NCBI GenBank assembly: GCA_018266755.1 | Contig: JAFDZW010000005.1 | Span: forward strand, 711,233 to 775,232 | DNA from: Bacteroidota bacterium | GTDB lineage: Bacteria; Bacteroidota; Ignavibacteria; Palsa-1295 | Length of the DNA stretch: 64,000 bases | Reading direction: 5' to 3' | Shown here: positions 33,989 through 43,338 of the stretch, piece by piece | Layout: each line of letters opens with the position of its first letter | How positions within the stretch are numbered: the first letter of the stretch is position 1 | Notes under the pieces: model-generated | Seen by the model: only the letters and a program-made list of their open reading frames with translations | What the model was told of the DNA's origin: nothing | The model's database searches: none | Program-made: the position numbers and the translations under genes

Positions 33989-36283
33989 TCAAACGTTGCT
34001 GACTGCGAATGCATTTACGTCGGATGCGTCATAGACCTCGGAACCATCGTTATAGAGTCGATAGGTCCCATCGGTTGCAAGCGCCGCGACGTAGAGATTT
34101 TCTGAAAGAGCCGCTTGCCCCGGGCAAGTACCCAGTAACTGCTGGATCGGAACATCCTGTGTAAAGACTCCGCCACTAAGTGCGAATCCATCAACCCCGG
34201 AGATCACATATCCATTTGCAGCTACCCCCGTCGATTCGGTGTTGTTGCCCTTGATGACCGAGAAGCTGAACGTCGCAAAATTACGCGGATGCGAAGCGAT
34301 GTAGCTGATCCGAACACCTTGCGCGAGATTTGTGTACTGGATGAAGCCGCATTTGCCGGATTTCACCGGTTGACCGTTCTGATATACCAGATTTCCGGCT
34401 CCATCGGTCAATAGCACATCCTGAATATCGGCAACGCACGGTGCATTATCGATACGCACCTTGAACGAGAGACTCAATGCATTATTGAGATTCCCTCCAT
34501 CAAGCCGCAGATCGTAGTTCGGCGCATCGACCGAGTTGCCGGTATTATTGTAATCCGATACTTGGAATACCTGCTTCGGTACCGAGACAACCTGGAACAC
34601 CCCGTTATTGTCGAGATGAAGTAATTCAAGGTCGAAACGGTACAGGCCGTCTTGAAGCGAATGCGAATCGAGCGATGCACTCCAGAAGTCCGGGCTGGTC
34701 CATTGTATGGTCAATGCTTTATCGGCAGCAGGGACGAGCGGCTCTTGATAAATATCCCAATGCGGGATCTTATAGCCGATATTCTCCCCCGCACCATCGG
34801 CGCCGAGCGTGACGGAATGCGTTTCGAAATGGAAATGACCGGCTACTTGCGTGATAACATAATAGTCCTTTGAGACTGCACCGTTTATCACCGTCGTAGG
34901 CGGATTGAGTATGTCGTTGAGATTCTCATCCTTGATGCGTGTCTTCTTCCAACGATAGTGTGTAATCGTATTCGTCGGCAATCCATCGCCAAAGAGCAGA
35001 CGGAAATTGAGTCTGCTTCCGAACGGACTGATTCGATGCGCGTCGATTATATCTGTACAGCCGACATTGCGCATATTCACCCCCTGCACATTGACGGTGT
35101 TAAGGTCGTTCTGTTCGATGTGCAGCGCCGTCGCGTTCCAACCGATCGACTTGAACCACACGATCTCACCGACCGCTTGATCGTCGCAATTGCACGGCAT
35201 CACGCGCGGGTCGGTAATCTTGATCGAAATGACCGAGCCGCAATCGTAATTCCAATATGTATGACACGGCAACGCCGGTTTGTAGACCGTCACCCATTGC
35301 CCGTTAATATTTACCTCTACCCAGAAGTACAGATTCAACGGCCCATCTTCGAGCAGCGTGTTCTCCCAGAGTTCGAAGTGCCCATTGCAGTCGGTGTACA
35401 CAATGGTCTCTTCATCGTACGTATAGATCCATGGCCAAATCCACGGCCAGAGGCAGATATACGGGTATAGAATGTCGTGGTAATCGTAGAGTGCACTGCG
35501 CACGGCCGAGACAGAGCCGGAAGACATTGCCATCGCTACTTCTTCGGGTAACGGTGGAAGCGCTTGTAACCTCAGCGACTCTTGCAACGGCTCCGACGCC
35601 CGAAGCGAGTTCAGCGGAACGTTCATCTTCTGCATCCGCGCGATCTCACGCCCGGCAGTCTTACCGGACGATTGCGTTCGAGCAAGCTCCGAAGCAGCAC
35701 TCTGGCGGTACGGATCGGGTGGAAACGGCGGTACTACCTTGATCACTTCACGAAACTTATCGCTGATCTCCTGGATGATCCAGTCCGGAATCTGTCGATA
35801 ATAGATCGGGATGTGTGGCAGCACGAGTTCGGTCTCGACCTCGCAGATATGCACACGGGCATTACACACGGGCAGTGTTTTCCACTGGCCGTCGATGAAA
35901 AAATCCTTCGTGATATTACCCGAAATAAGGCAATTCCCCCAAAACCACGGCTTCAATGCTCCGCTCGGGATGCGGGATACATCGATGAATGTTCGGTCGG
36001 TAAATGCCTTCGTGACTTGATACGCACCTGCTTTTCGCAGATCTCGTTCATTGAACGACGAGGCCTCGGTCCCCTTCGGCAGGCCGGGAGCAATGAATAT
36101 TTTCGCACCACCTTTTAGCGTCGGCGCTGGTGTCTTCAGTCGTGCTTCGAGTCCGTCGAAACTGCTGGCCTCGATAATGCGCCCAGAGTTGTCGGTGACG
36201 AATACATGTAGATTGTCGGTCTTCTTAATGCCGGAATCCGCAGATATGCGGATGACGATCGACCCGTTCGTGTCGGTTCTCAT
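33989..36283 (-). CDS. large orphan protein (765 aa from the ATG at 36283; up to 843 aa if the GTG at 36520 is used), Trp/Cys-rich central segment, no signal peptide
   Basis: Long uninterrupted minus-strand ORF with host-like codon bias. Contains ILYPYICLWPWIWPWIYTYDEE and several Cys pairs (PCHTYWNYDCG, PCNCDD). The C-terminal half is beta-rich (G/N/S/T/V). It is the last gene of the S8/peptide/LuxR island. Confidence 0.55.
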   Translation of the reverse strand: MRTDTNGSIVIRISADSGIKKTDNLHVFVTDNSGRIIEASSFDGLEARLKTPAPTLKGGAKIFIAPGLPKGTEASSFNERDLRKAGAYQVTKAFTDRTFIDVSRIPSGALKPWFWGNCLISGNITKDFFIDGQWKTLPVCNARVHICEVETELVLPHIPIYYRQIPDWIIQEISDKFREVIKVVPPFPPDPYRQSAASELARTQSSGKTAGREIARMQKMNVPLNSLRASEPLQESLRLQALPPLPEEVAMAMSSGSVSAVRSALYDYHDILYPYICLWPWIWPWIYTYDEETIVYTDCNGHFELWENTLLEDGPLNLYFWVEVNINGQWVTVYKPALPCHTYWNYDCGSVISIKITDPRVMPCNCDDQAVGEIVWFKSIGWNATALHIEQNDLNTVNVQGVNMRNVGCTDIIDAHRISPFGSRLNFRLLFGDGLPTNTITHYRWKKTRIKDENLNDILNPPTTVINGAVSKDYYVITQVAGHFHFETHSVTLGADGAGENIGYKIPHWDIYQEPLVPAADKALTIQWTSPDFWSASLDSHSLQDGLYRFDLELLHLDNNGVFQVVSVPKQVFQVSDYNNTGNSVDAPNYDLRLDGGNLNNALSLSFKVRIDNAPCVADIQDVLLTDGAGNLVYQNGQPVKSGKCGFIQYTNLAQGVRISYIASHPRNFATFSFSVIKGNNTESTGVAANGYVISGVDGFALSGGVFTQDVPIQQLLGTCPGQAALSENLYVAALATDGTYRLYNDGSEVYDASDVNAFAVSNV

Positions 36284-36676
36284 GGTTGGTAATCGTGTTG
36301 ATGCACTGCCTACTCTTATGGTCCGGTTTTCGGCAAACCCGGCGAGGAGCAGACGATGAAGAGCGCAGAGCGGACTATGCTGCAAACTATACTGGCGGAT
36401 TCGTTCGTGTTTGAGGTGAAACGCCGAACCGCACAGGCATACTCCTGCGATATATTTTCCCCCATCTCTCGCTATCACGGCGATCGCACATCTGGGGAGG
36501 CGGTGCGATGTCTTACTCACTCAGAAAAGCGCCATGCCATGATCCCTCGCGGATAGTGGACCGACGTGACGTGGCAAGTGTGTAGGCTTCACCACGATCT
36601 GCTAGCCGCGATCGAAACTCATAGGCACCGTCTGCAAACCTACGACGGACGAATCACTTTCCACCTCACGAAAACC

Positions 36677-37057
36677 TCATGATTGAGGAATTATCATCTC
36701 TTGTGTTGCGCCGATGACGCCGAGAAGAAAGCTATGAAGATGCTGCGACGGTGTGAGCGAGAATTTACGCCGAATGTTGCTTCGATGATTCTCGACGCTT
36801 CGCTCGGTAATCGAAAGCACCTCGGCGATCTGCCAACTCGGCATGGCCTCGAAGAGCATGGCGCAAATTTCGAGCTCCGTTCTCGACAGCGTCGGAAACA
36901 ATCGTGCAAGTTCGCCGAGGAAGTGGGGATGCCGCTGGCGAAATTGTTCTTCAAATTTGAGCCACCCAAGCCGATGCTTGCGGCGTGCTGTTCTGCTCCT
37001 TCCGTCTTTTGTTGTCGGCTGGGGGGTCACCGCAACGCTGGTCAATGTACTAAACAT
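36677..37057 (-). CDS. LuxR/GerE-type HTH transcriptional regulator (small, HTH-only)
   Basis: The C-terminal LSRTELEICAMLFEAMPSWQIAEVLSITERSVENHRSNIRRKF is a LuxR-C HTH signature. Confidence 0.7.
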   Translation of the reverse strand: MFSTLTSVAVTPQPTTKDGRSRTARRKHRLGWLKFEEQFRQRHPHFLGELARLFPTLSRTELEICAMLFEAMPSWQIAEVLSITERSVENHRSNIRRKFSLTPSQHLHSFLLGVIGATQEMIIPQS

Positions 37058-37342: not shown

Positions 37343-37648
37343 TTAACACCAGCCGACGCTGTCGCTCCAGATCTGCTTACCCAGCACCGTTACTGTTGCC
37401 GAAGCGCCAGTCGGGATACCGATGTGTGTGCAAATATTCGCACACGCCTGAGCGGATGCACCGCTCGGTACCCATGACGGAACCGGAATGCAGATGCTGC
37501 CGATGACCGGCAAACTGAAGCAGAGTTTTCCGTTATTCACAGTTGCGGAGACACATGTGCTATAGTCGCTTGCCGTCACGGAAGCGTCTGTCGCATACAT
37601 ACCCGCGCTGCCCCGCAGAACCGGAGCTGCTTGAATTGGAATAGTCAT
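37343..37648 (-). CDS. Cys-rich small protein A (101 aa, 6 Cys, C-terminal Cys), paralogue of B; candidate precursor peptide
   Basis: ATG start with an AAGGAAA RBS 6-7 nt upstream. Sequence MTIPIQAAPVLRGSAGMYATDASVTASDYSTCVSATVNNGKLCFSLPVIGSICIPVPSWVPSGASAQACANICTHIGIPTGASATVTVLGKQIWSDSVGWC. It shares the N-terminal M-x-IPIQA-x-P and the C-terminal SGA.SA..Q.CA...C block with protein B. Confidence 0.6.
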   Translation of the reverse strand: MTIPIQAAPVLRGSAGMYATDASVTASDYSTCVSATVNNGKLCFSLPVIGSICIPVPSWVPSGASAQACANICTHIGIPTGASATVTVLGKQIWSDSVGWC

Positions 37649-37734
37649 AGTGGTTTCCTTGATAACATGAATGTGATGGAATCACCGCCGATGCCGGACA
37701 CGAACTTCGCCTCCGACACCCGACGACTGTTGCC

Positions 37735-38106
37735 TTAGCAAATATGGACGCCCGCACAGATCTGCTGCGCTGCACTTTGCGCACCCGACCAGCTCTTGAG
37801 CGAATCGCACCCGAACTGTTCGCAGATCGCATCAAGCGTTGCATCGAGGATCGGACACACGACATCCCCGATTGGGTCTTCCGGTCCGAGGAATGCAACT
37901 TCGCATGCCGCGCCTGCCGCGATACCTACGCCAGTACACCCAAGCCAGCATGTTCCATTCGCTGCGGTGTAGATCACTCCGGCAAGCACATCGGTACAGA
38001 CCGAACACCCGTCCTGCGGCATCACGGATCCGCCATGCGTTCGTCGCGACAGCTTCGATGTATGTCGCATCCGCTCAATCGGCCTCGCTTGTATGGGAAT
38101 TCTCAT
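37735..38106 (-). CDS. Cys-rich small protein B (124 aa, 10 Cys, C-terminal Cys), paralogue of A; candidate precursor peptide
   Basis: ATG at 38104-38106 with a GAAAGG RBS about 11 nt upstream, 35 nt after the S8 stop. Sequence MRIPIQARPIERMRHTSKLSRRTHGGSVMPQDGCSVCTDVLAGVIYTAANGTCWLGCTGVGIAAGAACEVAFLGPEDPIGDVVCPILDATLDAICEQFGCDSLKSWSGAQSAAQQICAGVHIC. The track ORF extends further upstream, but homology with A supports this start. Confidence 0.55.
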   Translation of the reverse strand: MRIPIQARPIERMRHTSKLSRRTHGGSVMPQDGCSVCTDVLAGVIYTAANGTCWLGCTGVGIAAGAACEVAFLGPEDPIGDVVCPILDATLDAICEQFGCDSLKSWSGAQSAAQQICAGVHIC

Positions 38107-38141: not shown

Positions 38142-40100
38142 CTAATACACATCCCACTGCCGCATCGTACCGACGGTGACCGGCACGATGTCGCTGACAT
38201 CGATCGTGTAGCGGTAGACCCGACGTGCCTGCTCGAAGCGCTTCGTAGGATTGAAGAATGAGAGCTTGACATCCCAGCAATCCGAACCCGGTTTGCAAAT
38301 CGGGCTGCGCTCGACATCGATCGAATCCAGTTTCAAACCACTCTTGATGGCATCGCCATACACCGCCTGAAGCTGGAATGCATTGGTCGCTGCGTAGTTC
38401 ATCGCTCGTTCCTGGGCAGTCACGCCAAGATTACGGATTTCGTAGTAGATCCGCGAAAGGAACTGGTGGATACCGACAGAACGATCGGTGTATTCCAGCA
38501 TCGCTTCCTTTGCCTTCGGCGCTTCACCGAGAACTGCACTCACGAGTGACTGCGTCGTCCAGCTATACATACCGCGATGCTCCGGGATGATCAACGGAAC
38601 GACTTGTCCGTTCAATAGTCTGCGCATGCCGCCGATCGTGCCCGGAATCGAAACGCGCTCGACTCCTTCGGTAATCTGTGCACGCAGAAAATCGCGCATG
38701 CGGTCGTACGTTGCCGCCGCAAACGGGCCAGTAGGTGCGATGGCATAGACGGGCGTCTCGTCGATGGTCAGCGTCCAGTGCAGACTGGCTGCGGACGCCG
38801 GGTCGGAGCTGAGATACTCGACCATTTCGGCATTGCTCGAAACATTGCGTCCGGTTTGCTGCGAAAACGAGTCTCGCCGAGCCTCGGTCCCGAAGTCGAG
38901 ACCAATCTGGCCGAGTGCATACACGAGCATCGGGCGAGCCGGTGACGCTTGCTGCGACGGTTTGTTATTGCATCCGCACGGTTCGCTCCCCCCTTTGCAG
39001 GAGCATTCCGACGGCACAATCGCGGCATCGTGTTCTTGTGGAATGATCATTGCGGAATTGGTGTCCGCAGTATCGGGTGCCAGCATGGTGGCAACCTCTT
39101 CGGTTTGTTGATTGTATTCTGACATGTTGACTCCGTTAGTTAGTAAGTGAAACTTCTGTTCTTCATACGGTTCGCCTTCCGGCTGCTCGATCGCTCGCAT
39201 CGCTGCCGCGACATCGAGCCTGCCTGAAAGAACCCGGGTGCAATCGGTCTCCACCTTCGGATCGCAAGGAGACGACGAACGCATGATCGCACGAAAGACT
39301 GCTCGCGGATCGGGCGTGTACCCGAGTTCGATCTGCATGCTTAGCAACAGCGCTGCAACGCCCGAGACAACCGGAGTTGCATAGCTCGTCCCGGTCTTGC
39401 GCCATACACTGCCGCCTGCACGTGCACCCAGAATATCCTCGCCCGGTGCAAGAATGCCGTTGGACCGATAGATTGCACCGAAGTTGCTGAAGTCGAGTGG
39501 CGTCCCGTCGTGTCGCATCGCTCCGACCGCGAGGATGTGCGGATTGGACGCAGGGATATGCTGGCAATCGCATCCGTCATTCCCGGCCGCTGCGATGATG
39601 AGAATCCCTTGGTCGGTACACCGACGAATTGTGTCGGCAAGGAATGTCTCTTCCACCCCGGAGATCGAACGTTGCCCGCCGGAAATGTTAATGATCTGCG
39701 CACCGCGATCTGCGGCCAACGAAACAGCTTGCGCCAATTGCACTTGCGTCGCCGGTTTGAACTCACCATCGATATCCGAACCAAATAGAGGGATGACCAA
39801 CCCTCGACACCCGGGTGCAATTCCTTCTACGGCAGAACCCCGCTGTCCAAAGATGATGCTGGTTACATGCGTACCGTGTTCGAGCGCCCGGCCTGCAACC
39901 GATCCGGTCCCAAAAGGGTCGATCGTTTGAAGATCCGCGCCGCGAAAACATTCATGGTCGAGATCGACATCCCCGTCGATCACCGCAACACAGATAGCTG
40001 CGCTCCCCGCAGAGCGTGAGAACAGTTCTGTGAAACCGGGTACAGAATCCCGATCAAAAATATCATTCCCGCGATCGATATGGTCGTCGTGTGGCTGCAT
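38142..40100 (-). CDS. subtilisin-like serine peptidase (S8 family), cytoplasmic (no signal peptide), with ~320-aa C-terminal extension domain of unknown function
   Basis: Catalytic triad contexts are AVIDGDVDLDH (Asp), HGTHVTSII (His), GTSYATPVVSGVAALLLS (Ser). The C-terminal half (PMLVYALGQIGLDFGTEARRDSF...SIPGTIGGMRRLLNGQVVPLIIPEHRGMYSW...) was not recognised. Confidence 0.85.
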   Translation of the reverse strand: MQPHDDHIDRGNDIFDRDSVPGFTELFSRSAGSAAICVAVIDGDVDLDHECFRGADLQTIDPFGTGSVAGRALEHGTHVTSIIFGQRGSAVEGIAPGCRGLVIPLFGSDIDGEFKPATQVQLAQAVSLAADRGAQIINISGGQRSISGVEETFLADTIRRCTDQGILIIAAAGNDGCDCQHIPASNPHILAVGAMRHDGTPLDFSNFGAIYRSNGILAPGEDILGARAGGSVWRKTGTSYATPVVSGVAALLLSMQIELGYTPDPRAVFRAIMRSSSPCDPKVETDCTRVLSGRLDVAAAMRAIEQPEGEPYEEQKFHLLTNGVNMSEYNQQTEEVATMLAPDTADTNSAMIIPQEHDAAIVPSECSCKGGSEPCGCNNKPSQQASPARPMLVYALGQIGLDFGTEARRDSFSQQTGRNVSSNAEMVEYLSSDPASAASLHWTLTIDETPVYAIAPTGPFAAATYDRMRDFLRAQITEGVERVSIPGTIGGMRRLLNGQVVPLIIPEHRGMYSWTTQSLVSAVLGEAPKAKEAMLEYTDRSVGIHQFLSRIYYEIRNLGVTAQERAMNYAATNAFQLQAVYGDAIKSGLKLDSIDVERSPICKPGSDCWDVKLSFFNPTKRFEQARRVYRYTIDVSDIVPVTVGTMRQWDVY

Positions 40101-40307: not shown

Positions 40308-41480
40308 CTACAGCAACCGCACGACGATATTATCGCAGAACCGGTATCCCGTTGTAGTCAGGCGAAGTATGTCACCTTCGATGGTAGCCAAACCTTCATT
40401 GATAATACGCGCGAGTTCACGATTGGAACGGAGGTCTTCGCGAAACGAGGTGTTGAACTGCGAGATGTGTACTCCGGTCGATCGGAGTCCACAGAAAAGC
40501 ACTTCGATACGTCGTTCTCGCAGATCCGGACGCTCGGAATTATTACGAGGAAGAATACCATGTTCGATCCGGTCGAGGTACCGATCGAGTGAGGAGAGAT
40601 TCCACGAGCGCTCGCCGCCGATGAATTCATGTGCTGAGGGACCGAAGGACACGTAGTCTGCATAGCCGTCCCAATAGACAAGATTATGCCGACAGCGTTG
40701 AGCTTCGGTTTTTGCATAGTTCGATATCTCGTACTGCACAAAACCCGCATTCGAAAGCGTCTCCTGCACCATCTCATACATCTCCGATGCTTCATCCACC
40801 GGCATCTCGTTAACTTGGTGCAGCTTTACCATTCGGTTAAGTGGCGTCCCCTCTTCAACGGTGAGATTATAGACGCTCAAGTGGTCGGTTTCAAGTTCAA
40901 TAGCCTGCTTGAGCGAATATGCAAGCTTCTGCATTGTTTGGCCCGGTAGCGCAAACATCAGATCAATGCTGACACGATCAAACCCAGAGGAACGTGCGAA
41001 CCGAACGGCATCGCGGGCCTCATCGGCGGAATGAATACGAGAAAGCCATTCGAGCTCATCGGCATGAAACGACTGTACGCCAAAGCTGAGACGATTCGCG
41101 CCGAGCGCACGATATCGTGCGAGTTCCGATTCGGTGACGGTACCGGGGTTACACTCTAACGTGAACTCAAGGTCGGGAAGAAGGACAAAGTGTTTAGTGA
41201 TCGCCTCGACGATCGACTGTAATTCCTCCGGTGTGAGCAGCGACGGAGTGCCGCCTCCGAAAAAGATAGTCGATACGGCAGAGCCTTCGAGCGACGGATA
41301 GCGGGCGATCTTCAAATCGATCTCACGCACAAGCGCGCTGACGAAGCGCGCTTGTGCGGATCGGTCTTCGATCGAATAGAAATCGCAATAGACGCACTTT
41401 TGCTCGCAAAACGGGATATGGAAATAGAGCGAAAGTCCGTCGCGGTTCGTCAGTTGATATTGCGTAGTATCCTGTCCCAC
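40308..41480 (-). CDS. hemW: radical SAM haem chaperone HemW (HemN-like, oxygen-independent coproporphyrinogen-III oxidase family)
   Basis: LSLYFHIPFCEQKCVYCDFYS (CxxxCxxC), GGGTPS, and the HemW C-terminal domain. Canonical neighbour of lepA. Confidence 0.85.
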   Translation of the reverse strand: MGQDTTQYQLTNRDGLSLYFHIPFCEQKCVYCDFYSIEDRSAQARFVSALVREIDLKIARYPSLEGSAVSTIFFGGGTPSLLTPEELQSIVEAITKHFVLLPDLEFTLECNPGTVTESELARYRALGANRLSFGVQSFHADELEWLSRIHSADEARDAVRFARSSGFDRVSIDLMFALPGQTMQKLAYSLKQAIELETDHLSVYNLTVEEGTPLNRMVKLHQVNEMPVDEASEMYEMVQETLSNAGFVQYEISNYAKTEAQRCRHNLVYWDGYADYVSFGPSAHEFIGGERSWNLSSLDRYLDRIEHGILPRNNSERPDLRERRIEVLFCGLRSTGVHISQFNTSFREDLRSNRELARIINEGLATIEGDILRLTTTGYRFCDNIVVRLL

Positions 41481-42337
41481 CGAATGTGAAATGATTGCGT
41501 CTCTTCAGGGTCGTAGCCATCCCCGTGATCCGACGGCGGATTGTACCACGACCAATACACGAACATTGCCTTGCCGACAACGTTCTCTGCCGGACAAAAG
41601 CCCCAGAAGCGCGAGTCTTCCGAATTATCGCGATCGTCGCCAAGCATCCAGAGATAATCGCGGCCAACGGTATAACTCGTTGCCGTTACCCCGTCTATAC
41701 TCACCGATCCATCCATCGCACAGTTCACGTGATGACCTTCGCGCTCGATGAACACACGCCAGCCGTCGATGTTTTTCGCATCGAGCTGCAACACGTCCCC
41801 TTTCTTCGGCACACGGATGGGGCCGTACTGATCCTGATTCCAACCGGAGTATTTCGGAAAGATCCGAGAGTCTGAGAGTCCCTTCCGTAGTGGCTGTTCG
41901 TCATATCTGCCGTTCGGTGGCAGCGTCACCGCAGTTCCATTGACATATACCTGCTTATCGCGTATCTCGACCACATCACCGGCCAGCGCGACGGCGCGTT
42001 TAATAAAATCCACATTATGCTTCGCCGGTACGACAAGATCACGTTCACCGGGATATTCGAACACCACCACATCGCCGCGCTTGACGTCGGCATAATCGAA
42101 TCCGATATGCGGGATCGGCATGTCGGTAAACGGCAGATATTTCGGTGTATGAAACCCGTAGGCAAGTTCATTGACGAACAGATGATCGCCGATCAGCACG
42201 GTGTTCTTCATCGAGCCGGTTGGGACCTGGAATGCCTGCACCGCAAACGACCTCACGGCAATCGCGAGCAGCACTGCGACGAGCAGGGAGCGAACAACGC
42301 TCTCGTTCTTCTTACTAGTCTTCGGAGTCTTCTTCAT
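41450..42337 (-). CDS. lepB: signal peptidase I (S26), copy 1
   Basis: VPTGSMKNTVLIGDHLFVNELAYG (Ser box), GDDRDNSEDSRFWG (box E). Start re-assigned to MKKTPKTSKK. Confidence 0.85.
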   Translation of the reverse strand: MKKTPKTSKKNESVVRSLLVAVLLAIAVRSFAVQAFQVPTGSMKNTVLIGDHLFVNELAYGFHTPKYLPFTDMPIPHIGFDYADVKRGDVVVFEYPGERDLVVPAKHNVDFIKRAVALAGDVVEIRDKQVYVNGTAVTLPPNGRYDEQPLRKGLSDSRIFPKYSGWNQDQYGPIRVPKKGDVLQLDAKNIDGWRVFIEREGHHVNCAMDGSVSIDGVTATSYTVGRDYLWMLGDDRDNSEDSRFWGFCPAENVVGKAMFVYWSWYNPPSDHGDGYDPEETQSFHIRWDRILRNIN

Positions 42338-42444
42338 TCGAGTACATGAATGGTGATCAATGTGCTCACGCCTTCGTGAGCGTACCGGTTTCGGTACGCC
42401 CATGGTGCGATGTAGTTACTCGAATGGACGGAGTTTTGCCCTGC

Positions 42445-43338
42445 TTACTGCGCGCTATGGAAGAGGCGGTTCCAGCGGACGTGCAGGTTCTGCGGCTCCT
42501 CGGGGTCGTAGCCGTCGCCGGTATCTCCCGGCGGATTGTACCATGACCAATAAATGAACATCGACGAGCCGATCACATTATCGACCGGACAGAACCCCCA
42601 GTAGCGTGAGTCTGCCGAGTCGTCGCGGTTATCACCCATCATCCAGAGATAGTTGCGTTCGACGGTGTAGCTGGTCACTTTCTTTCCGTCGATCGTGACC
42701 GATCCATCAGCTCCGCATTCGCATGAATGGCCTTCGCGTTGGATGAAAACACTCCATGCGTCGATGTTCGCAGAGGAAAGCGCGATCACGTCACCCTTCT
42801 TCGGGATACGGATCGGGCCGTAGTTATCATGATTCCACGTCGTGTTACCACGCGGGAAGATCCCCTCTTCCGGATGTCCCTTCGGCAGCGGCGGGAAGTT
42901 GTAGCGCGAGTTCGGCGGATTCTTGAATTCTTTCCCGTTGACATACACCTGCTTGTCGCGAACCTCGAGCGTGTCGCCGGCAACGGCGATACAGCGTTTG
43001 ATGTAGTTTACGTTCTTCTCTTTCGGTTCTACGAGGTCGCGATCGCCCGGGTATTCGAACACGATCACATCCCCTTGCTTGACGTCGCGGTAATTAAAGC
43101 CGAAGTGCGGGATCTTCCAATTGGTCAGCGGCAAATACTTCGGCGTATGAAACCCGTAGGCAAGTTCGTTGACGAACAAATAATCGCCGACGAGCAGCGT
43201 GTTCTTCATCGAACCTGTCGGAATGCGGAACGCCTGGAACATGAACGAGCGGATCACCAACGCGATCACACCTGCGACCAGAAGCGAACGCCAGAGGCTC
43301 TCCTTCTGCTTTACTTTCTTCTTCGGTAGAATTGCCAT
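42445..43338 (-). CDS. lepB: signal peptidase I (S26), copy 2
   Basis: IPTGSMKNTLLVGDYLFVNELAYG, GDNRDDSADSRYWG. Tandem paralogue of the previous gene. Confidence 0.85.
   Translation of the reverse strand: MAILPKKKVKQKESLWRSLLVAGVIALVIRSFMFQAFRIPTGSMKNTLLVGDYLFVNELAYGFHTPKYLPLTNWKIPHFGFNYRDVKQGDVIVFEYPGDRDLVEPKEKNVNYIKRCIAVAGDTLEVRDKQVYVNGKEFKNPPNSRYNFPPLPKGHPEEGIFPRGNTTWNHDNYGPIRIPKKGDVIALSSANIDAWSVFIQREGHSCECGADGSVTIDGKKVTSYTVERNYLWMMGDNRDDSADSRYWGFCPVDNVIGSSMFIYWSWYNPPGDTGDGYDPEEPQNLHVRWNRLFHSAQ

What the first reader, a model, noticed from the sequence alone, without database searches (positions are those of the whole stretch)
37343..38106. Two adjacent paralogous Cys-rich small proteins sharing an N-terminal M-x-IPIQA-x-P motif and a C-terminal SGAxSAxxQxCAxxxC block, both ending in Cys
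A reads MTIPIQAAPVLRGS… and ends …SGASAQACANICTHIG…GWC. B reads MRIPIQARPIERMR… and ends …SGAQSAAQQICAGVHIC. The N-termini are conserved and the middles are variable and Cys-rich (6 and 10 Cys). Both have a C-terminal Cys and lack signal peptides. That is the signature of a precursor family with a shared recognition/leader element and diversified cores, or of a duplicated small disulfide/metal-binding protein. Gene B starts 35 nt after the S8 stop. Gene A has a consensus AAGGAAA RBS.
Basis: seen in the sequence. Interest (0 to 1): 0.7.

Follow-up and report, generated by a model that had tools for sequence, protein, structure and literature searches.

The report
Cyanobactin-type leaders on cysteine-rich peptides
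The two small genes encode precursor peptides with a cyanobactin-like leader, sit next to a PatA-type leader-removing protease, and belong to a protease-plus-precursor system found in many bacterial phyla that I could not find described in the literature.

Summary
Gene A (37343-37648, minus strand, 101 aa, 6 Cys) and gene B (37735-38106, minus strand, 123 aa, 10 Cys) share an N-terminal M-x-I-P-I-Q-A-x-P-[VI]-x-R box. The claimed shared C-terminal block is not at equivalent positions and is not supported.

The upstream S8 gene is a PatA-type cyanobactin leader protease with a C-terminal PatG_D/PatG_C domain pair. Related proteases in about 22 of 27 genomes from at least 8 phyla are flanked by same-strand small ORFs with the same box. 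I collected 39 such precursors. Most also carry a [G]-[ILV]-x-[PA]-[SQ] site 0-10 residues before the first Cys. This site resembles the published PatA site G(L/V)E(A/P)S. The cores fall into 23 unrelated clusters, and 37 of 39 have an even Cys count.

The box matches PatE residues 5-16 (NILPQQGQPVIR). No macrocyclase, heterocyclase or C-terminal recognition sequence is present.

Best reading: leader removal by the PatA-type protease releases linear, disulfide-rich peptides of about 74 and 92 aa. B's core is helical and only weakly resembles halocin C8 and saposin folds. Cleavage, disulfides, export and bioactivity are inferred. Ten full-text searches found no description, so I rate it a new variant of a known kind.

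The parts
38142..40100 (-). PatA-type S8 protease (652 aa). It has an N-terminal subtilase domain (catalytic D42, H75, S239) and C-terminal PatG_D and PatG_C domains. No signal peptide.
   Evidence: - Pfam: S8, PatG_D and PatG_C.
- TIGR03895 scores 664 bits against a cutoff of 421.
- Best PDB matches are PagA 4h6w (297 bits) and PatA 4h6v (274 bits), both end to end. PatG macrocyclase 4aks scores only 179 bits. The PatG DUF 4uvq scores 205 bits.
- NCBI names it MBS1903620.1, 'PatA/PatG family cyanobactin maturation protease'.
37735..38106 (-). Gene B, a 123-aa precursor. The predicted leader is residues 1-31 and the predicted core is residues 32-123 (92 aa, 10 Cys, helical).
   Evidence: - Homologues P0002 and P0003 start at the same Met with MRLP[IN]QA.PV.R.
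- A further 26 relatives exist, many with the same leader.
- The AF2 core has pLDDT 80-92 and 4-5 helices.
- C53 and C100 co-vary: both present in 8 members, both absent in 9, one exception.
38071..38106 (-). Gene B N-terminal leader box, MRIPIQARPIER (residues 1-12).
   Evidence: - In 32 precursors, P4 is present in 32, P9 in 31 and R12 in 32.
- Codons at these positions are synonymous variants.
- The box matches PatE NILPQQGQPVIR.
38014..38028 (-). Gene B predicted PatA-type cleavage site, S-V-M-P-Q, with cleavage after Q31 just before DGCSVC.
   Evidence: The [ILVM]-x-[PA]-[SQA] motif occurs at residues 26-34 in 23 of 32 precursors. The published PatA site is G(L/V)E(A/P)S (PMC10885120). 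Cleavage here is inferred, not shown.
37343..37648 (-). Gene A, a 101-aa precursor. The predicted leader is residues 1-27 and the predicted core is residues 28-101 (74 aa, 6 Cys).
   Evidence: - Homologues beside PatA-type proteases: L020 2721-3017, L009 12130-12429, L004 3038-3292, L005 11982-12245 and L002 767 onward.
- The NCBI record annotates it as a hypothetical protein, JSS75_07950.
- L020 and L009 have 8 Cys. Window A lacks two of them together, at positions 83 and 97.
37613..37648 (-). Gene A N-terminal leader box, MTIPIQAAPVLR (residues 1-12).
37568..37582 (-). Gene A predicted cleavage site, S-V-T-A-S, with cleavage after S27 just before DYSTC.
   Evidence: It aligns in register with the sites of the other leaders. 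Other precursors carry GVTAS, GVNAS or QVNAS. Inferred, not shown.
37654..37660 (-). Shine-Dalgarno-like AAGGAAA, 5 nt upstream of gene A's ATG.
   Evidence: Read directly from the sequence.
36677..37057 (-). LuxR/GerE-type HTH protein (126 aa), a possible cluster regulator. Membership in the system is uncertain.
   Evidence: Pfam GerE, E=4.9e-12. A promoter-like site lies at 37143-37115. Regulators are frequent near related loci but are not orthologous.

Best explanation
A and B are ribosomal precursor peptides of a minimal, cyanobactin-related maturation system.

Each precursor has three parts:
- a 12-residue N-terminal box, M-[RK]-[LI]-P-x-Q-A-x-P-[VI]-x-R, homologous to the N-terminal conserved segment of cyanobactin PatE-type leaders;
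- a short variable spacer ending in a PatA-type cleavage site, [G]-[ILV]-x-[PA]-[SQ];
- a long Cys-rich core.

The co-transcribed PatA-type subtilase, encoded 35 nt upstream of B, is proposed to cut after S27 of A and Q31 of B. This would release linear peptides of 74 and 92 aa that fold with 3 and 5 disulfides. There is no heterocyclisation or macrocyclisation. The products are most likely exported, bacteriocin-like or other extracellular effectors. B's core is a disulfide-stapled helical bundle.

Shown here: the genes and motifs, the protease subtype, the co-occurrence across phyla, the leader homology, and the Cys parity and covariation.

Inferred: the cleavage position, the disulfides, export and bioactivity.
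For: Protease subtype:
- TIGR03895 scores 664 bits.
- PagA and PatA structures match end to end at 297 and 274 bits. The PatG macrocyclase scores 179 bits.
- The catalytic triad is intact.

Co-occurrence:
- 27 related protease loci were found in Acidobacteriota, Planctomycetota, Bacteroidota, Chloroflexota, Bacillota/Clostridia, Poribacteria, Proteobacteria and others.
- A strict box regex gives 17 hits in 467 kb, against 0-3 in each of 20 shuffles (mean about 0.5).
- With variant boxes, about 22 of 27 loci have 1-4 such ORFs. All are on the protease strand and within about 3 kb.
- Logan contigs carrying B homologues have up to 3 leader-bearing ORFs each, and one has a PatA-type protease upstream.
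- Only the protease and the precursors recur across loci.

Protein-level selection: invariant P4, P9 and R12 are encoded by all synonymous codons.

Leader homology to cyanobactin precursors:
- The PatE peptide NILPQQGQPVIR is quoted in PMC5108345.
- The leader profile against PatE gives E=6.9e-5 and 63% probability.
- Related precursors give sub-threshold hits almost only to cyanobactin models: TIGR03678 at E=0.008 and 0.11, TIGR04446 at E=0.013 and TIGR04220 at E=0.058.

Cleavage site: it aligns in register across 32 leaders and resembles G(L/V)E(A/P)S.

Disulfides:
- 37 of 39 precursors have an even Cys count, across 23 core clusters.
- In the B family, C53 and C100 are present or absent together (8 both, 9 neither, 1 exception).
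- In A, C83 and C97 are lost together.

Operon layout: the gaps are 35 and 86 nt, with no terminator-like site between the genes.
Against: - There is no experimental evidence of expression, cleavage or disulfides.
- A and B themselves give no hit to any cyanobactin precursor model at E<=1. The leader link rests on a 10-12 residue box.
- 9 of 32 precursors lack a clear [PA]-[SQ] site.
- The protease has no signal peptide and no transporter is conserved nearby. It is unexplained how a cytoplasmically cleaved peptide is exported and oxidised.
- Published NMR found that the PatG DUF does not bind PatE' (PMC4259220). What reads the N-terminal box is therefore unknown.
- Some related loci carry extra enzymes, such as class-V aminotransferase fusions. 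Products elsewhere may be further modified.
Confidence: 0.72

Rival explanations
1. The N-terminal box is an export or targeting signal, or a regulatory tag, read by something other than the neighbouring protease. B would be a halocin-C8-type bacteriocin matured independently, and the protease adjacency would reflect a different role, such as immunity or activation outside the cell.
For: - TIGR04449 (halocin C8 domain) is the only NCBIfam family hit by more than one B-family member: 3 of 18, best E=0.077. P0002 scores 10.9 bits.
- hhalign places the B core along the full HalC8 length with Cys in register.
- The PatG DUF did not bind PatE'.
- No transporter is conserved nearby.
- Some B-core relatives carry signal peptides instead of the leader.
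Against: - The HalC8 link is not significant: hhalign probability is 5-7% and scores are far below the 24-bit cutoff.
- The box has no hydrophobic region.
- It co-occurs strictly with a protease of the leader-removing subtype, together with a PatA-like site in register.
Confidence: 0.12
2. A and B are cytoplasmic metal-binding or redox (metallothionein-like) small proteins, and the Cys residues ligate metals rather than form disulfides.
For: The cores are Cys-rich. There is no signal peptide and no exporter. Some cyanobactins bind copper (PMC13266932 abstract).
Against: - The Cys count is even in 37 of 39 precursors, and Cys residues are lost in pairs. This fits pairwise bonding.
- B's Cys residues are spread along a helical bundle rather than grouped in CxC or CC clusters.
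- B-core relatives are fused to signal peptides and to a lectin-like domain.
Confidence: 0.07
3. The locus is a genuine cyanobactin cluster producing small N-to-C macrocyclic peptides excised from A and B.
For: The protease is annotated as a cyanobactin maturation protease. The leader box resembles PatE.
Against: - There is no second PatA/G-family gene in the 64 kb.
- The S8 domain is of the PatA type, not the macrocyclase type.
- There is no AYDG-like C-terminal recognition sequence and no LAELSEE box in A or B.
- The flanking genes are housekeeping genes.
- The cores are 74-92 aa with a conserved Cys framework, against 6-20 aa in cyanobactins (PMC4663559).
Confidence: 0.03

Closest known systems
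Cyanobactin pathway: PatA N-terminal protease acting on the PatE precursor (patellamide, prenylagaramide, anacyclamide and related families)
   Same: - The protease has the same architecture (S8 plus PatG_D/PatG_C DUF) and a close sequence: TIGR03895 at 664 bits and PagA at 297 bits.
- The precursor has an N-terminal L-P-x-Q-x-x-P-V-x-R box like PatE residues 5-16.
- The RSII-like cleavage site [G]-[ILV]-x-[PA]-[SQ] resembles G(L/V)E(A/P)S.
- Several precursor genes with hypervariable cores sit in one cluster.
   Different: - There is no PatG macrocyclase, no RSIII (AYDG), no RSI (LAELSEEAL), and no heterocyclase, oxidase or prenyltransferase.
- Each precursor has a single core of 30-100 aa with 4-12 Cys, instead of 6-20-aa cassettes.
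- The box starts at residue 2-3, without the MxKKN prefix.
- Hosts are non-cyanobacterial phyla.
- A and B do not reach any cyanobactin precursor model cutoff.
Halocin C8 and halocin C8-like domain proteins (TIGR04449)
   Same: B's core, like HalC8, is a 76-92-aa peptide with 10 Cys. It starts GCSxC and ends in Cys. It is released from a larger precursor by N-terminal cleavage. The full-length hhalign alignment keeps the Cys residues in register.
   Different: - The similarity is not statistically supported: probability 5-7%, best 10.9 bits against a cutoff of 24.
- HalC8 lacks the GGPEDP motif.
- From memory: HalC8 is cut from a Tat-exported precursor that also yields an immunity protein.
- P0030, the HalC8-like protein retrieved here, does not begin with the box.
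- No PatA protease link came up: a full-text search for papers naming both halocin C8 and PatG found none.
Saposin-like antimicrobial peptides (caenopores, NK-lysin class)
Prochlorosin-type logic: one processing enzyme and many precursors with a conserved leader and hypervariable cores
   Same: A conserved leader is joined to unrelated cores. There are multiple precursor genes per locus and a single dedicated enzyme.
   Different: The leader family and the enzyme differ (Nif11 leader with the ProcM lanthionine synthetase, from memory). Here the only conserved enzyme is a protease, and the cross-links are presumed to be spontaneous or host-made disulfides.

Membership tests
Cyanobactin biosynthetic system | PatA-family N-terminal (leader-removing) subtilase with a C-terminal DUF | tested here: met
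   TIGR03895 at 664 bits (cutoff 421), Pfam S8 plus PatG_D and PatG_C, and best PDB matches PagA and PatA.
Cyanobactin biosynthetic system | PatG-family C-terminal protease/macrocyclase | tested here: not met
   tblastn of the protease against the whole window finds only itself. The S8 domain matches PatA-type structures better than the macrocyclase.
Cyanobactin biosynthetic system | Precursor (E-peptide) belonging to a curated cyanobactin precursor family (TIGR03678, TIGR04446, NF042906) | tested here: not met
   A and B give no hit at E<=1. Related precursors hit TIGR03678 (16.5 bits, cutoff 39.6) and TIGR04446 (15.8 bits, cutoff 35), both below cutoff. The box-level homology to PatE gives E=6.9e-5.
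Cyanobactin biosynthetic system | RSII site G(L/V)E(A/P)S immediately before the core | tested here: inconclusive
   A has SVTAS and B has SVMPQ, in register with GLLPS, GVTPS, GILPQ and similar sites in 23 of 32 leaders. P1, P2 and P4 are similar, P3 is not Glu, and cleavage has not been tested.
Cyanobactin biosynthetic system | RSIII (AYDG-type) after a short core of 6-20 aa, and a macrocyclic or short linear product | tested here: not met
   The cores are 74 and 92 aa and run to the stop codon ending in Cys, with no AYDG-like tail. Feature definition from PMC4663559.
Cyanobactin biosynthetic system | Tailoring enzymes (PatD heterocyclase, oxidase, PatF prenyltransferase) in the cluster | tested here: not met
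   The ten larger neighbouring ORFs that were scanned, between 26.2 and 45.2 kb, are housekeeping or unrelated genes: lepA, two lepB, a hemW-like gene, recR, a methyltransferase and polysaccharide genes. Not every ORF in the 64 kb was scanned.
Halocin C8-like domain (TIGR04449) | Score above the curated cutoff (24 bits) for the 69-position, 10-Cys domain | tested here: not met
   B gives no hit. P0002 scores 10.9 bits. 3 of 18 B-family members reach E<=1. hhalign probability is 5-7%.
Saposin-like fold (SAPLIP) | Significant structural match to a 4-5-helix saposin bundle | tested here: inconclusive
Sec/Tat-secreted small proteins | N-terminal signal peptide with a hydrophobic core | tested here: not met
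   The maximum 10-residue hydropathy in the first 35 aa is 1.3 for A and 0.15 for B. No dedicated predictor was available.

The most novel reading that the evidence does not exclude
The PatA-type protease plus the 'LPxQAxPVxR' leader would form a self-sufficient, pan-bacterial two-component system that matures hypervariable, disulfide-rich mini-proteins, a bacterial counterpart of conotoxin-like libraries. Cyanobactins would then be a specialised cyanobacterial offshoot of it. The enigmatic PatG_D/PatG_C DUF would be the module that docks the N-terminal leader box. In related loci this DUF also occurs alone, in tandem, or fused to a class-V aminotransferase. That would give a function both to the cyanobactin DUF and to the unassigned N-terminal part of the cyanobactin leader.
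Probability: 0.3. Interest if true: 0.85.

Novelty: new variant of a known kind. Interest (0 to 1): 0.7.

Why it matters
- Genome-mining tools and NCBI annotation label these proteases as 'cyanobactin maturation'. Here the substrates are a different product class: long, linear, Cys-rich peptides. They are annotated as hypothetical or mis-called. For example, B is truncated to 95 aa in the one gene call found, which loses the leader.
- Recognising the leader box and the cleavage site gives a simple rule for finding many new peptides in MAGs from soil, sponge and freshwater phyla.
- The minimal protease-plus-precursor pair offers a clean system for asking what the conserved cyanobactin DUF and the N-terminal leader segment do. 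Both questions remain open in the cyanobactin papers read here.
- It could also serve as a portable leader/protease pair for producing disulfide-rich peptides.

Tried and rejected
- **Pfam and NCBIfam on A and B:** no hits.
- **PDB sequence search with B:** only a chance nanobody match.
- **Halocin C8 hypothesis:** I tested my recalled HalC8 sequence, which NCBIfam validated at 59 bits, and an 88%-identical Natrinema protein exists. The link to B stayed sub-significant. The database search with HalC8 returned only one relative, so no HalC8 profile could be built.
- **Homology of the A and B cores:** pairwise BLAST gives E=2e-4 over 42 residues. It is absent at profile level and the two do not cluster. 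I treat the cores as unrelated or undetermined.
- **AF2 of A alone:** pLDDT 45, unusable. The A-family alignment could not be submitted because sequences from fetched loci are not accepted.
- **Fold libraries:** afdb50 was unavailable.
- **Conserved transporter, oxidoreductase or tailoring enzyme across loci:** none found.
- **The 843-aa neighbouring ORF:** no Pfam, NCBIfam or PDB match, and no homologue in related loci.
- **Literature:** ten full-text searches used motif strings, PatA/PatG with Cys-rich or disulfide-rich terms, TIGR03895, and Pfam accessions. None found a description of this system. Sardar et al. 2015 was not held.

Full report
**1. What is in the sequence**

A compact co-directional gene set lies on the minus strand:
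- a 652-aa S8 protein at 38142-40100;
- gene B at 37735-38106, 35 nt downstream (123 aa from the ATG, 10 Cys);
- gene A at 37343-37648, 86 nt further on (101 aa, 6 Cys), preceded by AAGGAAA 5 nt before the ATG;
- a LuxR/GerE-type HTH protein at 36677-37057;
- an 843-aa ORF with no database match at 33989-36520.

The flanking genes are housekeeping genes: lepA, two lepB, a hemW-like radical-SAM gene and recR. No terminator-like site separates the protease, B and A. The exact proteins identify the source as an NCBI MAG labelled 'Bacteroidetes bacterium'. There the protease is named 'PatA/PatG family cyanobactin maturation protease' and A is a hypothetical protein.

**2. Checking the observation**

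Both proteins begin M-x-I-P-I-Q-A-x-P-[VI]-x-R. This box occurs nowhere else in the six frames of the window. BLASTP of A against B gives E=9e-6. When the two families are compared as profiles, only residues 1-29 and 1-32 align (95% probability, E=2e-8).

I regard it as compositional. Both proteins end in Cys, and neither has a hydrophobic signal-like segment.

**3. The neighbouring S8 is a PatA-type leader protease**

- It has Pfam S8, PatG_D and PatG_C domains.
- TIGR03895 scores 664 bits.
- The S8 domain aligns end to end with the N-terminal cyanobactin proteases PagA (4h6w, 297 bits) and PatA (4h6v, 274 bits). The PatG macrocyclase scores only 179 bits, over a shorter span.
- The C-terminus matches the PatG DUF structure 4uvq.
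- The catalytic residues D42, H75 and S239 are present.
- There is no second PatA/G-like gene in the 64 kb.

**4. Both genes have homologues, always with the same leader and the same neighbour**

B has close relatives in Logan assemblies (P0002 and P0003, 53-56% identity) that start at the same Met with MRLP[IN]QA.PV.R. The contigs carrying them hold further small ORFs with the same box and unrelated cores. One contig shows a PatA-type protease C-terminus directly upstream.

A profile search of 1.84 billion representatives found 26 B-core relatives. Many have the leader. Others have signal peptides or other N-terminal domains.

Searching one genome per species with the protease returned 27 loci. 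They come from Acidobacteriota, Planctomycetota, Bacteroidota, Chloroflexota, Bacillota/Clostridia, Poribacteria, Proteobacteria and Actinomycetota.
- A strict regular expression for the box gives 17 hits in 467 kb, against 0-3 in each shuffle.
- With variant boxes, about 22 of 27 loci carry 1-4 such ORFs. All are on the protease strand and within about 3 kb.
- Gene A has clear homologues in this set: L020, L009, L004, L005 and L002.
- Only the protease and the precursors recur across loci.
- In total I collected 39 precursors from 23 sources, falling into 23 core clusters.
- The invariant P4, P9 and R12 are encoded by all synonymous codons, so selection acts on the peptide.

**5. Anatomy of the leader**

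Aligning 32 leaders shows two conserved blocks. The first is the N-terminal box: P4 in 32 of 32, P9 in 31 of 32, R12 in 32 of 32, Q6 in 24, A7 in 23 and V/I10 in 30. The second is a [G]-[ILV]-x-[PA]-[SQ] motif at residues 26-34, 0-10 residues before the first Cys, present in 23 of 32 leaders.

The published PatA consensus is G(L/V)E(A/P)S, with cleavage after Ser (PMC10885120). In A the site is SVTAS|DYSTC. In B it is SVMPQ|DGCSVC.

**6. The box is the cyanobactin leader box**

PatE residues 5-16 are NILPQQGQPVIR. That peptide is quoted in PMC5108345. My recalled PatE sequence scores 80.9 bits on TIGR03678.

The 32-leader profile aligns LPxQAxPVxR with LPQQGQPVIR at E=6.9e-5 and 63% probability. 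Among 18,950 NCBIfam models, most of the better-scoring sub-threshold hits of related precursors were to cyanobactin families:
- TIGR03678, at E=0.008 and 0.11;
- TIGR04446, at E=0.013, spanning box to site;
- TIGR04220 (PatB/AcyB/McaB), at E=0.058, to its N-terminus.

These leaders lack the heterocyclase box (LAELSEEAL) and any AYDG-type C-terminal sequence.

**7. The cores**

Cys counts are even in 37 of 39 precursors. In the B family, C53 and C100 are both present in 8 members and both absent in 9, with one exception. Window A has lost together the two Cys that its 8-Cys homologues keep, at positions 83 and 97. This pattern points to disulfide pairs.

Halocin C8 has 10 Cys, a GCSxC start and a terminal Cys. 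It is the only NCBIfam family that several B-family members touch, but the scores are far below cutoff. AF2 on A alone was unusable.

**8. Mechanism and its limits**

The best-supported model is that the PatA-type protease removes a cyanobactin-type leader from A and B. This would release linear 74- and 92-aa peptides that become disulfide-bonded. It is a minimal, macrocyclase-free relative of the cyanobactin pathway.

Several points remain open:
- Which domain reads the box is unknown. PatG-DUF did not bind PatE' by NMR (PMC4259220).
- How the products leave the cell is unknown. There is no signal peptide and no conserved transporter.
- What the products do is unknown. A bacteriocin-like role is a guess. 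It rests on the Cys-rich hypervariable cores, the weak fold hints, and the fact that B-core relatives are fused to signal peptides and to a lectin-like domain.

**9. Novelty**

Ten full-text searches found no description of this leader, or of PatA-associated Cys-rich precursors outside cyanobacteria. Subscription literature was not covered. I classify the finding as a new variant of a known kind: the cyanobactin-type leader and protease logic is applied to a different product class and to a wide range of phyla.

Noticed in passing
L010 1928-4918; L030 8792-11884; L009 12518-14452: In two Bacillota/Clostridia MAGs the PatA-type protease carries an N-terminal class-V aminotransferase domain (cysteine-desulfurase fold), giving Aminotran_5 + S8 + DUF proteins of about 1000 aa. 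In a Solibacteraceae MAG an Aminotran_5 + DUF protein sits next to a gene-A homologue. This may be a PLP-dependent tailoring step. It is absent from the window.
   Followed up: partly
L005 12348-13148; L022 1239-2252; L028 2-1222; L006 12050-14119: The PatG_D/PatG_C DUF pair also occurs as a standalone protein and as a tandem DUF-DUF protein inside these clusters. It behaves like a mobile docking module.
   Followed up: partly
NCBIfam TIGR04220 (PatB/AcyB/McaB), model positions 1-12: The N-terminus of the PatB family, small cyanobactin-cluster proteins of unknown function, weakly matches the same leader box. The hits are E=0.058 with L004_3890 and E=0.11 with one B-family member. This hints that PatB-type proteins may carry the same tag.
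   Followed up: no
window 37735-38022 (P0001): The only stored gene call for B (Logan, 95 aa) starts at internal Met29, so the leader is lost. The 123-aa and 187-aa versions are not in the protein collection.
   Followed up: yes
window 33989-36520 (-): An 843-aa ORF lies downstream of the LuxR gene; its likely true start is further in, at MRTDTNG. It has no Pfam, NCBIfam or PDB match and no homologue in the 27 related loci. Whether it belongs to the cluster is unknown.
   Followed up: partly
P0018, P0019, P0024, P0012, P0014, P0028: B-core-like domains with a G(L/G)GPEDP motif also occur without the leader. They appear in signal-peptide proteins, in tandem repeats, in a 5491-aa protein with 11 matched stretches, and behind a weak B_lectin domain (P0028).
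   Followed up: partly
L002 497-691; L016 8169-8354; L022 2335-2532: One box-bearing family continues R-I-P-A-P...GLGD.V..VT...C.GC..RAA.L..W. It has only 2 Cys and no convincing PatA-like site (the regex picks up only KVTAA in L022 2335). It may be a different kind of partner, such as a regulator or an immunity protein, rather than a cleaved precursor.
   Followed up: no
L019 8511-8702: A Methylotenera MAG has a box-bearing ORF with a GILPS site, but its core is Cys-free and highly acidic (EYEGNDEAEGEGEHGGEDEQGGEDYSNESE).
   Followed up: no
L026, L027 (Actinomadura): These hits match only the DUF. Next to them is a long ORF family shared by the two loci. I did not run a domain scan on it, and my guess of a nitroreductase/oxidase-like protein rests on reading its sequence. 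These may be conventional azole-type cyanobactin-like clusters rather than part of the system described here.
   Followed up: no
window 41450-43338 (-): Two tandem S26 signal peptidase I genes lie between lepA and the hemW-like gene, just upstream of the cluster.
   Followed up: no
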